Program-made: the position numbers and the translations under genes
The notes under the pieces: model-generated
What the model was told of the DNA's origin: nothing
Seen by the model: the letters and a program-made list of their open reading frames with translations, nothing else
Databases searched by the model: none
Origin: Chrysomallon squamiferum
Taxonomy: Eukaryota; Animalia; Mollusca
NCBI GenBank assembly: GCA_012295275.1
Contig: CM022677.1
Location: 20,708,001-20,772,000, forward strand
Length of the DNA stretch: 64,000 nucleotides
Direction of reading: 5' to 3'
In this document: piece by piece, positions 28,530 through 63,650 of the stretch
How the letters are laid out: every line of letters starts with the position of its first letter
How positions within the stretch are numbered: position 1 is the stretch's first letter

Positions 28530-31500
28530 GTGAGTATTTATTTGTTAGTGAAATTCTGCATTACAATCTTCAACACCTAAGTTTAGTATTATTTATTTAT
28601 GTTATTACTATTATATCTATATAATAGTAACTTTTACGTGTTTGTGTGTGTGCACGCGCGTTTGTTTATTGTTTTAATCTATAATGACTAATACAAAATT
28701 GTATGTTTTATGTTTCAGTGTCGGGGCATGGTCACTGTGGACGAGACAACGCGATGGATTGTGTGATGCTGACTGTTTTCAATATGTAAACTTTTCACGT
28801 GTGTGTTTAAAACGAGGTTCTTGTACAGGAGAAACTAAACTAACCAGACGACTGAAATGTTTAAACTGTGAAAGAAGTAAGTAAAACTCGAGATGAAATA
28901 GACTCATTACTAAAACGTAAAAGAAAATAGTCATACAAGTTTAATTAATAATGAAGTATATTAAGATGAGAAGATTTTGCAAAAAAAATCAGTTCGGCGA
29001 TAGATATAAAAAATGAAGAAAACAACAACAAGTAGAAACCAAAGAAAAACAGTCACAATGATAATTAAAATATTTGCTGACTAAACGTGATTAACTTGTT
29101 AGAACGAATAACAGAACATTTCCAATTTCAGTAACAGGACTGTGGAGTACGTGGTTAAGAGTTAGTTCTACTCAGTGTGATGTCAGCTGTAAACAAAGAG
29201 TGACCTTTCTTCGACAGTGTAAACCAGCAGACAGCAGCGACACGCCATCTGTCAGGTGTAAGGGAGATAACAGAATTCGCACGACATCACAGAACTGTAC
29301 AGGTGATCGATGCGTCACTCACGAAGGCCGCTTAAGTCCTGACCGTAATAACAGTACTCACCTTTACGAAAGAATTGCACTTGTTGCTGCTATGAAAGGT
29401 AAACTAAAATACAATAAAGATAACTCAGGATAAGATAAGATAAGATATTAGAATAGAATAGAATAGAATAGAATAGAATAAAATAAATGAATAAAAAAAA
29501 AAGATTAGGCTAAATTATGTAATATGGTACATAGGTTTTTGTACATTGTATTGATAATGATGATGATAATGATAACAGTAACAGAAACAATAATAATAAC
29601 AACAAAAATAAAACAGTATATTTAAAAAATTAACAAATAAAAGACAATTTAAAAAATACTACCGAAAATAATAAAAAAGGAACAACACATATATATGTGC
29701 ATTTTCTCTTATTTTATTGATATATTATTTATTTCCTTCTTTTAATGTTTTACATTTAATTTTTATTGTTTTTTCTTAGCTATTGGAGGATGGACGAATT
29801 GGATTCGTATAGACAACAGACGATGCAGCGTCACTTGTGGTTATGGTGCGATCGAAAATGATGAAATTCGATACTGTGTAACCAATGTTCCTGGAAATTG
29901 TATTGGAATAGCGAAGAGACACCGCGTGTGGGCATGTACTAATGCTGTGTGTGACGGTAAGATGTCTTGGTTTTAATAGTACAAGGAATAAAACTCGTTT
30001 TGTAACAGCAATAAAACGCTTTTTGTTAAAATTCTCTTTGGTTATGTTATATGAAATTCTTAATTTTATAAATAAATAAACAAACAAACAAATAAATAAA
30101 TTAATTAATTAACAAGGTAATTAATTAATAATTTCTGTGTTTATTTATATAAAATCTTCCATTATAAATAAATACATAAATTAATTAATTAATTAACGCA
30201 ATGTGACCCTTATAACTAAATACATAAATTATTTTAAAATGTATTTACATGTTTTCAGTCAAACATAAATAATCAAATATATATGCACGTCTTTATATAC
30301 GTACAAAAAACTTTATAAATTAAAAAATAATTAAAAATATCTTTGTATTAAAGCCTGTATGTATATGTATATTTATATACGCGCGTGTGTGTGTGTGTGT
30401 GTGTGAATGTGTTTAAGTGAGTGTGTGTGTGTGTGTATAAGCATTTACATGCTATATAGAGACCAAGACATAGATACATACATACATACATATATATACA
30501 TACATATATATATAAACTCACTCTTATCTTGTAGACGATTCTGGATGGGGTGCATGGATTACAGTGAGAGTATCAGCGTGTAGTGTTTCGTGTGGTGTTG
30601 GTGTTGAAATTCACAAAAAATTTCGATATTGCGTTAAGAAGCGCATAAAGAAATGCGATGGTTCTGGTTTGATGAGTGAACCTAAAGTGTGCAGAACAGG
30701 CATTACCTGTCCCAGTAAGATATATCTATATATATATATATACATTTTGATTTTATCATTCTTTTTCTTAATGATACATTTGTTTATTAATTTATTTAAA
30801 TTTAATAATTCTATTATTTTTTTTATATTATTATTATTATTATTATTATTATTATTATTATTATTATTATTATTTTTATTTTTATTATTTTTATTATTAT
30901 TATAATTATTATTATTATTATTATTATTATTATTATTATTATTATTATTATTATTGTTGTTGTTTTCCCTGTTATCATTTTTCGTATTTTTGTATTTTGT
31001 GTTTCATAATATGTATATATCTGTATCTATATATATATATACACACACATTTTGATTTTATCATTCTTTTTCTTAATGATACATTTATCTATTAATTTAT
31101 TTATATTTATTAATTGTATTGTTATTATTATTATTATTATTATTATTTTTATACAAGCATCATGATCATCGTCATCACCATAATCGTCATCATCATTTCA
31201 TATTTATTATCATTATTATTATTATCATTATTATTATTATTATTATTATTATTATTATTATTATTATTATTATTGTTATTATTGTTATTGTTGTTGTTAT
31301 TGTTTTCGCTATTATCATTTTTTCGTATTTTTGTATTTTGTGTTTCATATTGCTAATTACTTTTTACTTTTTTTTTTTCTAAAACATTATCAAACATAAA
31401 TGAAGATGAGGGACAATTGGGTAGGTACCATTATTTCTTCTTTTTTTTACGTAAATATATTGTCATAGATGCACGGCGTTACACACAAAGAGACAGACAT

Positions 31501-61800: not shown

Positions 61801-63650
61801 TGCAAGGATGATCTTGTACTAACATGAATGCATTAAAAAATGCACAGTTTAGTTAATTAGTTTATTGCTTTAATGGCTTTATTTTATAAATCGATAAATA
61901 CTTTCTTGCACACATACATAATTTATTTATTTATTTATTTATTTATTTATTCAGCCACTCAGAGACCGCGTACAAATGAAACAGGTAAAATAAAATAAAA
62001 ATAAAAATAAGTTTACTGATTATTTTTTGGCATGTCAACACAGCATTACATACAAATTTCCGAAGGTAAACTCAAATTTTTGAAAAAAAAAAACAATCGA
62101 AAAGACAAACATTCTTATTCACTTTTCTACTCTTTCGTCCGTTTGTTCATCACTCACTCACTCATTCTTTTCAATAATACATTTAGCCGAATCTCGTTTA
62201 CCCTCTAACACCAATGTCTCACTCTTTCCTTCACACTATAAAGAAAGGTGGAAATACATATTTTTATGCAGGTTTAGTATTCTGAAATCTGGAAAAAAGA
62301 ATAAAACTTAAATAATATATATATATATAGGGGGTGTCCCAGAAGTCACGCACCATGAAGATTTTTATTTAGATACATATGAATAAAAAATTTATTAATA
62401 ATAATCATAACAAATGCTCAAATTGCTTGCCCTCTGCATTGATACATACTTCAATTCTCTTTATAAAACTGTTTTTTACTCTGTTGAGGGTTTCGCTACT
62501 AATTTATGTGTATCTAAATAAAAATCTTCATGGTGCGTGACTTCTGGGACACCCTGTATATATATATATATATATATATATATATATATATATATATATA
62601 TATATATATATATATATATATATATATATATATATATATATATATTATTATTATTATTTTTTTTAATTTCCAGATTTCAGAATATATGCATATAATGTAT
62701 TATTTTATGTTATTTATTTATTTCTGAAGTGGATGTTGGTTGGTCTACATGGCATATTGGACTTAGTACAGACTGTACAGTCACATGTGGTTTTGGTCAT
62801 ACGGAAGACTACTTCTATCGAAAATGTGACAACCCACCACCACAAAACGGAGGACAGAGTTGCTATGGACCTTTAATAAAACACAGGGTACTATCGTGTG
62901 TGGAGCGAGAATGTCCTAGTACGGTTCATCAACTTTAATCTTATAAAACATTTTTTTTTTTCAGAGGTCAAAAACAGTATGTATGGTCATTCATCCAAAT
63001 GAACTAACGATGATGGCAATATCTTATTGTTTCGTTCAGATATTCTTTGTATGTAGTCCGAAGTAAAACCTTCTTATTTGTTTATATATATATATATATA
63101 TATATTGCAGTCAATGTAACCATCTGAGATAAGAAAAATAATAAAAGAAAAACAAATATGACTAAAATAATGAAAGACCTAGAGTAATGCATTCTTATCC
63201 GCCTAAATATATATTTATATATGAGCGTAAATGTAGCTGCATATCTACGTACACACGCAAACATAGATAACAGTAAATAAATAGATATGCAGATAAAGAT
63301 ATTTAGATTGATATTTATATATATAAATTCATAAATCGATAGGTTGGTAAGTAGAAATAGAAATAGACAGAGATAGTCATGTAATTGTGTAGACATGTAA
63401 ATAGATAGACGCATCAATCGACAAAGAAATGTAACTAATGGAAGTAAAAATGATAATAATTTTCTAGATGATCCTGGGTGGACCACGTGGAAGCAGAGAA
63501 GGGCGTCGTTGTGCAGTGTGACGTGTGGAGTTGGTGTGAGCACTGTGACTCTGACTCGAAAGTGTCCTTACATTTACAGAGGAGTGTGCCAAGGACCTTT
63601 CTGGAGATATGATATCAAAACATGTGACACCAACGTTACCTGTCCTGCTG
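54410..63650 (+). CDS. Gene B2: LRR-TSP1 protein, open reading frame, 3' end outside the window
   Basis: LRR 54410-55868; TSP1 56122-56280, 56667-56933, 57370-57546, 58045-58224, 59503-59694, 60360-60536, 62730-62918, 63468-63650; micro-exons 58711-58725, 61047-61076, 61421-61450, 61955-61984. All phase 1 and stop-free. Confidence 0.87.
62330..62556 (-). mobile_element. 227-bp Tc1/mariner-derived non-autonomous element (MITE) in a TA tract
   Basis: Perfect ~45-bp TIRs (GGGTGTCCCAGAAGTCACGCACCATGAAGATTTTTATTTAGATAC); right end CACCCTG-TA; interior minus strand reads ETLNRVKNSFIKRIEVCINAEGKQFEHLL*, like a Tc1/mariner transposase C-terminus; absent in B1 (~35610). Confidence 0.9.

What the first reader, a model, noticed from the sequence alone, without database searches (positions are those of the whole stretch)
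29780..63650. Strong excess of amino-acid-changing differences between B1 and B2 TSP1 exons, concentrated in specific domains
Seen, from hand codon comparison (replaced vs synonymous-only codons): 35710-35898 vs 62730-62918, 20 vs 1; 36490-36672 vs 63468-63650, 19 vs 5; 32201-32392 vs 59503-59694, 10 vs 0; 30535-30714 vs 58045-58224, 9 vs 2; 29780-29956 vs 57370-57546, 9 vs 2. All Trp/Cys scaffold residues are kept. In contrast, the 267-nt exon (29132-29398 vs 56667-56933) differs at only ~3 nt. Inference: diversifying selection on the TSP1 surface, implying the TSP1 array and not only the LRR is a variable binding surface; the near-identical exon may reflect gene conversion.
Basis: partly seen in the sequence, partly recalled or inferred. 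Interest (0 to 1): 0.8.

Follow-up and report, generated by a model that had tools for sequence, protein, structure and literature searches.

The report
Fast-evolving LRR-thrombospondin surface protein paralogs
An invertebrate animal carries duplicated genes for a predicted cell-surface protein with a leucine-rich-repeat head and a chain of thrombospondin domains; the copies keep the domain framework intact while some positions, mostly in one loop, change faster than neutral DNA, which likely reflects selection for new binding partners, although the raw excess first reported is mostly what the genetic code gives by chance.

Summary
The six codon counts are exact. The word 'strong' is not earned by them. 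Neutral change calibrated on the introns gives 4.4 replaced codons per synonymous-only codon, so 67:10 has P=0.13. T3, T4 and T8 have dN/dS near 1.

A narrower signal survives. Pooled TSP1 omega is 1.7-1.8 (P 0.02-0.045), T7 omega is 7-8, and a site-mixture test gives LRT 18 (12-13 without T7). Empirical P is about 0.01-0.03 under intron-like nulls and 0.07-0.11 under harsh ones. The neighbouring A-gene pair shows none of this (omega 0.5-0.6).

A dead B1 is rejected: no scaffold residue changed, no stops arose, the frame is intact in two other DNA runs, and B1-type T7 is spliced in RNA contigs. The T2 exon looks homogenised by conversion.

The gene reads signal peptide, LRR, nine TSP1 exons, microexons, short hydrophobic tail. 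Its nearest relatives are TSP1-less LRR proteins of molluscs and a brachiopod. Verdict: real, moderate, domain-focused positive selection in an apparently undescribed architecture; the binding partner is untested.

The parts
27071..28529 (+). B1 exon: signal peptide, LRRNT-like, LRR, LRRCT-like (486 codons, open)
   Evidence: Pfam LRR_8 on the B2 copy
28719..28876 (+). B1 TSP1 exon T1; 158 nt, one base short of B2 (frameshift in a G run in this assembly)
   Evidence: B1-like contigs with the frame intact in DNA runs X1 and X2
29132..29398 (+). B1 T2 (TSP1 plus 28-residue extension); homogenised exon
29780..29956 (+). B1 T3
30535..30714 (+). B1 T4
32201..32392 (+). B1 T5
33191..33367 (+).
33920..35271 (+). 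Four predicted 30-nt phase-1 microexons (33920, 34326, 34966, 35242) forming a Pro/Thr/Arg-rich linker between T6 and T7
   Evidence: an RNA loose end matching the last type joins T7
35710..35898 (+). B1 T7: strongest signal; loop codons 33-45 derived in B1
36490..36672 (+). B1 T8: most diverged exon, synonymous sites raised too
37545..37736 (+). B1 T9 (B2 counterpart lies beyond the window)
38636..41497 (+). Six predicted 27-33-nt phase-1 microexons (38636, 39436, 40727, 40936, 41184, 41465): stalk
41681..41712 (+). Predicted last exon: short hydrophobic C-terminus then stop, no cytoplasmic tail (GPI-signal-like)
   Evidence: inference
54410..55868 (+). B2 signal peptide + LRR exon
56122..63650 (+). 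B2 TSP1 exons T1 56122-56280, T2 56667-56933, T3 57370-57546, T4 58045-58224, T5 59503-59694, T6 60360-60536, microexons 61047/61421/61955, T7 62730-62918, T8 63468-63650
   Evidence: B2-like LRR>T1>T2>T3>T4 joins in RNA contigs
8776..10337 (+). B0: fragment with T2 (2-nt deletion near 9080) and T3; third copy used to test conversion
1..7148 (-). A1: divergent paralog, LRR exon 5712-7148 and four TSP1 exons; control pair
12780..24276 (-). A2: LRR exon (one extra base near 24011), four TSP1 exons, hydrophobic last exon near 12900; control pair

Best explanation
B1 and B2 are co-existing, spliced paralogs of a predicted membrane-tethered recognition protein whose TSP1 framework is held constant while a minority of other TSP1 positions, above all the T7 loop of B1, were likely driven apart by positive selection for different binding partners. 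Shown: the exon structure, the splicing, the intact scaffold, the fixed B1 and B2 types of T7 in four other samples, and rates above the intron rate in T7 and T8. Inferred: after tandem duplication each copy presents an LRR head on a TSP1 rod above a microexon-encoded stalk, probably GPI-anchored and without a signalling tail. About a quarter to a third of TSP1 codons evolve at omega 6-9; the concave LRR face also varies; conversion keeps T2 alike between copies; phase-symmetric exons allow domains to be skipped. The partner is most likely a foreign surface (microbe or parasite; about even odds), otherwise a gamete or matrix partner. That step rests on analogy only.
For: Scaffold 0 of 80 changed against 19.8 expected; stops 0 against 8.1 (TSP1) and 0 against 6.1 (LRR). 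Non-scaffold replacements T7 20 against 10.7 (P=0.002), T8 19 against 10.5 (P=0.004); multi-hit codons 24 against 12.6 (P=0.002). ML omega pooled 1.69-1.84 (P 0.045-0.020), T7 7.2-8.0 (P 0.009-0.006). M1a-vs-M2a-type LRT 18.1-18.7, 12.3-13.0 without T7; LRR and A-pair controls 1-2. Null simulations reach the observed LRT in 0 of 202 (no doublets), 2 of 172 (10% doublets) and 5 of 190 (scaffold frozen, 5% doublets, intron-like patchiness). T7 has 14 differences in 39 nt, matched by 0.5% of intron windows. Other samples add five replaced codons and no synonymous one in types seen in at least two runs (read by hand, tables 3 and 7); codon 43 takes at least three residues. B1-type T7 is in 4 of 4 runs and spliced in RNA run X9.
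Against: The raw counts are not significant (P 0.12-0.13). Pooled dN (0.094-0.097) is about the intron rate (0.086); pooled omega above 1 comes largely from low dS (12 synonymous codons against 23.9 expected). Without T7 pooled omega is 1.3-1.4, not significant. Harsh nulls reach the observed LRT in 15 of 165 (20% doublets), 18 of 171 and 12 of 185 (patchiness CV 1.0). T8 has omega about 1. The A pair gives omega 0.51-0.57, and A+B pooled 1.06-1.16. No excess of charge-changing replacements (33 of 79, P=0.25). Adding the extra T7 variants gives about 28:2, still P=0.07. The tests are my own pairwise codon models on two sequences, not codeml on a tree. Intron divergence is itself patchy.
Confidence: 0.6

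Rival explanations
1. Both genes are functional, but outside the W/C/R/G scaffold and the CxxS/TCG stretch the TSP1 rods are spacers that evolve almost neutrally; patchy gene conversion among several paralogs makes some exons older (T8, T7) and others younger (T2, T6), which mimics selection.
For: Pooled non-scaffold replacements 79 against 85.7 expected under neutrality. Omega about 1 in T3, T4, T8. Exon divergence ranges from 1% to 17.5%. Conversion is evident at T2 and B2-like T7 types mix B1 and B2 residues at codons 45 and 49. Patchy nulls give P 0.07-0.11.
Against: T7 has 24.5 non-synonymous against 1.5 synonymous differences, with dS below the intron rate, which an older tract would not give. 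Patchiness measured in the introns is CV 0.4-0.6, at which P is about 0.03. Doublet excess in the introns is negligible (39 at lag 1 against 38 at lag 2).
Confidence: 0.3
2. B1 is a dead copy (frameshift in T1) decaying neutrally, and the differences are its decay.
For: The window's B1 T1 exon is one base short; the LRR>T1 joins seen in RNA contigs are B2-like; B1 holds the derived state in the T7 loop.
Against: No scaffold change and no stop where about 20 and 14 are expected. B1-like contigs carry the missing base in two DNA runs, one with no other difference over 205 nt. B1-type T7 is spliced in RNA. LRR>T2 joins exist, so T1 can be bypassed in frame.
Confidence: 0.04
3. B1 and B2 are two alleles or assembly errors laid in tandem, so the differences are polymorphism or noise.
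For: The assembly has single-base frameshifts in B1, A2 and B0; two of the three B1 letters in T2 and one in T7 are not seen in the other runs.
Against: B1-type T7 (25 of 26 differences confirmed) and B2-type T7 both stand in 4 of 4 runs from three studies; introns differ by 8.6%. T8 was not checked against reads.
Confidence: 0.03

Closest known systems
Mollusc/brachiopod signal peptide-LRR-short hydrophobic tail proteins (Haliotis XP_071106136.1, XP_046362261.2; Aplysia XP_005100877.1; Babylonia XP_076461505.1; Lingula XP_013411095.1; unnamed ENA protein P0222)
   Same: Whole-length match to the LRR exon, 27-42% identity; A1, B1, B2 group with P0222, P0311 and Haliotis P0239/P0361 (support 98, quick tree only); same hydrophobic C-terminus without a cytoplasmic domain.
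   Different: They have no TSP1 array: the tail follows the LRRCT directly. Their database names are automatic and no function is shown.
Scallop LRR-only proteins CfLRRop1-6 (review PMC5877582, passages read)
   Same: LRR proteins without a TIR domain, reported to bind LPS, peptidoglycan, glucan and poly I:C: a model for how a tail-less LRR head could work.
   Different: LRR only, by definition; homology to this family was not tested.
TSP1-repeat (TSR) superfamily: thrombospondin-1, properdin, BAI1, UNC5; cnidarian and Elysia TSR proteins (PMC5446238, PMC7663992)
   Same: WxxW, six Cys, CSVTCG-like motif, Arg before the third Cys; Pfam TSP_1 above cut-off for B2 T7 and B1 T9; the T7 model's best structural matches are thrombospondin-1, BAI1 and properdin TSRs (E 0.002-0.009, none at 0.001). 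The legend of Fig. 4 of PMC7663992 lists LRR8 among domains found with TSP1 in Elysia.
   Different: Longer strand A (seven residues between the second Trp and the first Cys); most domains fall below the Pfam cut-off. I could not see the Elysia figure, so whether its LRR8-TSP1 protein is this family is open. No selection analysis of such proteins was found.
Diversifying invertebrate recognition families (FREPs, Sp185/333, VCBPs; recalled, no call)
   Same: Tandem paralogs, variable copy state, conversion and positive selection on extracellular domains.
   Different: Different domains; high allelic diversity is typical there, whereas B1-type T7 is nearly invariant in four samples.

Membership tests
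TSP1 repeat (TSR) | WxxW, six cysteines, CxxS/TC(G) motif, Arg in strand B | tested here: met
   Ten invariant columns in 19 of 19 domains; T1 lacks the Ser/Thr before the second Cys
TSP1 repeat (TSR) | Pfam TSP_1 above the curated cut-off | tested here: inconclusive
   2 of 11 TSP1 exons scanned pass (28.6, 28.4 bits); five more have weak TSP_1 hits, one a weak TSP1_CCN hit only, three none
TSP1 repeat (TSR) | Three-stranded TSR fold | tested here: met
   B2 T7 model pLDDT 89, strands 8-12, 20-29, 49-58; top Foldseek rows are all TSRs, probability 1.0, E 0.002 or weaker
Toll-like receptor | Transmembrane helix plus cytoplasmic TIR domain | tested here: not met
   The predicted B1 frame ends in a short hydrophobic tail; no TIR-sized open frame follows
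LRR-only proteins (LRRop) | No domain other than LRR | tested here: not met
   The LRR exon is spliced to TSP1 exons in RNA contigs
Mollusc-type SP-LRR-tail clade (P0239, P0222) | LRR exon homologous over its whole length and grouping with the clade | tested here: met
   (quick tree; the careful search did not finish)
GPI-anchored protein | Signal peptide, omega site, hydrophobic C-terminus, anchor attached | not testable with these tools
   The pattern fits by eye for A2 and, with a short tail, for B1; no predictor or experiment
Positively selected receptor | A site class with omega above 1 that survives doublet and recombination controls | tested here: inconclusive
   Significant under intron-like nulls, borderline under harsh ones; only two sequences
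Pattern-recognition receptor | Binds microbial ligands or is induced by challenge | not testable with these tools
   No expression-level or binding data

The most novel reading that the evidence does not exclude
This is an undescribed, expanded invertebrate non-self recognition family in which an old LRR head acquired a TSP1 rod that became a second variable binding surface, and in which tandem duplication, exon-scale conversion, positive selection and skipping of phase-symmetric exons and microexons together generate a combinatorial repertoire.
Probability: 0.2. Interest if true: 0.7.

Novelty: new variant of a known kind. Interest (0 to 1): 0.42.

Why it matters
TSP1 domains are usually treated as conserved adhesion or glycan-binding spacers (recalled). 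A family where they, more than the LRR head, carry the selection signal would point to TSP1 loops as variable binding sites in animal surface proteins and would give named codons to test (T7 codons 26, 36, 41, 43; T8 codons 8, 31, 39, 47). The LRR-TSP1-microexon-tail layout was not found among the proteins or papers searched. Positive selection on duplicated surface proteins is itself common, and the evidence here is moderate, so the interest is middling.

Tried and rejected
No genome is held for the window, so copy number could not be counted. Word-based protein searches with the LRR found only generic LRR proteins: 120 listed of 716, 93 of 93, 120 listed of 214; none listed carries PF00090, and a TSP1 motif scan hit 0 of 365 fetched proteins. 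These searches score only about 8000 candidates, so absence is weak evidence. The metagenome scan gave one irrelevant locus at 25% identity. The Atlas gave generic LRR clusters and weak TSP1 clusters for T2. Earlier findings: nothing by place, sequence or the long word list; the 'LRR TSP1' list held unrelated prokaryote, phage and algal cases. Charge-change enrichment: not significant. Contig depth suggests several more B copies (T2 contig 421 against about 55 for B1-type contigs in X1), but the tool warns depth is no copy number, so I do not count it. A single T2 contig per run is not taken as proof of identity, since contigs drop rare variants. The low-depth X2 contig (3.39), with three more replacements and one synonymous change, is kept apart as possibly erroneous. 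Weak Pfam rows on T2 (Tox-SGS, MTBP_N, E about 0.1) are chance. Runs X10 and X11 held none of the words. Literature searches found no paper on this architecture beyond the Elysia figure legend; most subscription journals are not searched and no supplements were read. No complex was predicted, as no partner is known.
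Full report
Observation. All six exon pairs are at the stated coordinates with AG/GT ends in phase 1, and the codon counts are exactly as reported. The window is 29% G+C, rich in microsatellites, with spliced genes: animal DNA. No genome is held. The region 26.1-37.0 kb aligns collinearly with 53.3-64.0 kb at an offset of about 27 kb.

Anatomy. B1 starts with a 486-codon exon (signal peptide, LRR; Pfam LRR_8 on the B2 copy), followed by nine TSP1 exons. Four predicted 30-nt microexons lie between T6 and T7, six predicted 27-33-nt microexons after T9, and a last exon gives a short hydrophobic end; about 1170 residues in all. 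B2 is the same as far as T8, where the window ends. On the minus strand lie A1 and A2 (LRR 41-44% identical to B2; four TSP1 exons each), a stub A3, and on the plus strand a fragment B0 with T2 and T3. All 19 TSP1 domains aligned share ten invariant residues. The T7 model has the three-stranded TSR fold.

The genes are spliced and B1 is not dead. RNA contigs of two runs join LRR>T1>T2>T3>T4 with B2-like letters, and also LRR>T2. In the window B1's T1 is one base short in a run of G. B1-like contigs in DNA runs X1 and X2 carry the extra base, one with no other difference over 205 nt, so this is likely an assembly error or a private allele. B1-type T7 stands in 4 of 4 runs laid (three studies) with one difference, beside B2-type T7; in RNA run X9 it has no intron cover and is joined to an upstream microexon. 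Against intron-calibrated neutral simulation, 0 of 80 scaffold residues changed (19.8 expected) and no stops arose (8.1 in TSP1, 6.1 in LRR expected). The scaffold was defined on an alignment that holds both copies, so that count is partly circular; the residues are also the standard TSP1 consensus (PMC5446238, passages).

How strong is the excess? Counting replaced against synonymous-only codons is biased towards replacements. With the intron substitution pattern (309 differences in 3587 aligned, repeat-masked columns, 8.6%) the neutral ratio is 4.4:1. Per exon, dN/dS is 0.9-1.4 for T3, T4 and T8, 3-4 for T5 (not significant) and 5.7-7.2 for T7. Pairwise likelihood gives pooled omega 1.69-1.84 (P 0.045-0.020), 1.33-1.44 without T7 (not significant), T7 7.2-8.0 (P 0.009-0.006), LRR 0.6-1.0, and A1/A2 TSP1 0.51-0.57. 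Pooled dN is about the intron rate and dS is below it.

What survives. Changes are unevenly placed: 0 of 64 codons in the CSVTCG stretch, 1 of 21 at the N-terminus and 2 of 78 at the C-terminus, against 20-25% in the strands and the C3-C4 loop. A two- versus three-class site mixture gives LRT 18.1-18.7 with a separate divergence per exon, 12.3-13.0 without T7, and 1-2 for the LRR and the A pair; the fitted class is 24-35% of codons at omega 6-8. Doublet mutations can fake this (bioRxiv 10.1101/165969, passages: about 1% of events). The introns show no doublet excess beyond patchiness. Simulated nulls reached the observed LRT in 0 of 202, 2 of 172 and 15 of 165 runs at 0, 10 and 20% doublets, in 5 of 190 with frozen scaffold, 5% doublets and intron-like patchiness, and in 18 of 171 and 12 of 185 with patchiness of CV 1.0. 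These are my own two-sequence models, not codeml. T7 has 14 differences in 39 nt, matched by 0.5% of intron windows. There B2 keeps the consensus shared with the A genes and B1 is derived. Other samples show further T7 types: replacements at codons 9, 10, 11 (two runs), 43 (three runs) and 31 (four runs), none synonymous; one low-depth contig adds three replacements and one synonymous change (read by hand; classes partly checked). T8 is the most diverged exon, but its synonymous sites are raised as well, so it may be an older tract; it was not checked against reads. In the B LRR, the variable positions of the seven LxxLxLxxNxL motifs found carry 12 of 42 replacements and no synonymous change, against 39 of 409 elsewhere (P=0.001); the A pair shows no such pattern. 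'TSP1 surface' says little by itself, as a TSR is thin and most side chains are exposed (recalled); no accessibility was computed.

The near-identical exon. In the flanks B0 sides with B1 and B2 is the odd one at most sites. Across T2, B0 and B2 are identical for 190 and 98 nt either side of a 2-nt deletion in B0. Two of B1's three private letters are absent from all four runs laid. This fits conversion or concerted homogenisation. Synonymous evidence alone is thin (1 against 4.3 expected, P=0.07), so strong purifying selection plus chance is not excluded.

Comparison. The full library search found whole-length relatives of the LRR exon, named from Haliotis, Aplysia, Babylonia, Mya and Lingula where named (5 of the 10 looked up had no name; one search lists 6 named clusters counting members). 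They end in a hydrophobic tail with no TSP1. A1, B1 and B2 nest with P0222, P0311 and Haliotis proteins in a quick tree. The organism is therefore likely a mollusc or another lophotrochozoan; I did not identify it. No LRR+TSP1 protein appeared among the hits listed, which is weak evidence of absence. In print, scallop LRR-only proteins bind microbial ligands (PMC5877582, passages), TSR proteins affect symbiont uptake in an anemone (PMC5446238, title, abstract start and passages), and an Elysia survey lists LRR8 among domains found with TSP1 (PMC7663992, passages and section 3.2; figure not seen, supplements not read). Searches found no description of this family.

Verdict. The counts are right, their strength was overstated, and a narrower claim holds: functional paralogs with a fixed scaffold and moderate evidence of positive selection on some TSP1 sites, mainly T7 in B1 (0.6), against relaxed spacers plus conversion mosaic (0.3). 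The architecture is a new variant of a known kind. Interest 0.42.

Noticed in passing
window 33920-35271, 38636-41497, 61047-61984: Arrays of 27-33-nt phase-1 microexons, with degenerate copies near 38880, 39810 and 40362 that have lost a splice site; one type is joined to T7 in RNA contigs.
   Followed up: partly
window 28529>29133: RNA contigs join the LRR exon directly to T2, with letters that differ from B1 and B2: T1 skipping or paralogs lacking T1.
   Followed up: partly
window 28722, 24011, 9080: Single small frameshifts in B1 T1, the A2 LRR and B0 T2; the B1 one is absent from B1-like contigs of two other runs, so assembly errors are possible for the others too.
   Followed up: partly
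window 5712-7148 (-), 22839-24276 (-), 51688-52029 (-): A-type genes lie head to head with B-type genes (A2/B1, A3/B2), so the duplicated unit looks like an A-B pair; A3 is a truncated stub. A genes have TSP1 exons resembling B's T1, T7, T8 and T9 only.
   Followed up: partly
window 29320-29398: T2 carries a 28-residue extension after the TSP1 domain, unchanged between B1 and B2; role unknown.
   Followed up: no
window 27700-28180: B1/B2 replacements cluster at concave-face positions of several LRR motifs with no synonymous change there.
   Followed up: partly
window 42500-47500: Tandem repeats of about 2.3 kb with broken minus-strand frames, probably a decayed transposon.
   Followed up: no
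window 17000-21900: Tandem 1.7-kb non-coding repeat inside the A2 intron.
   Followed up: no
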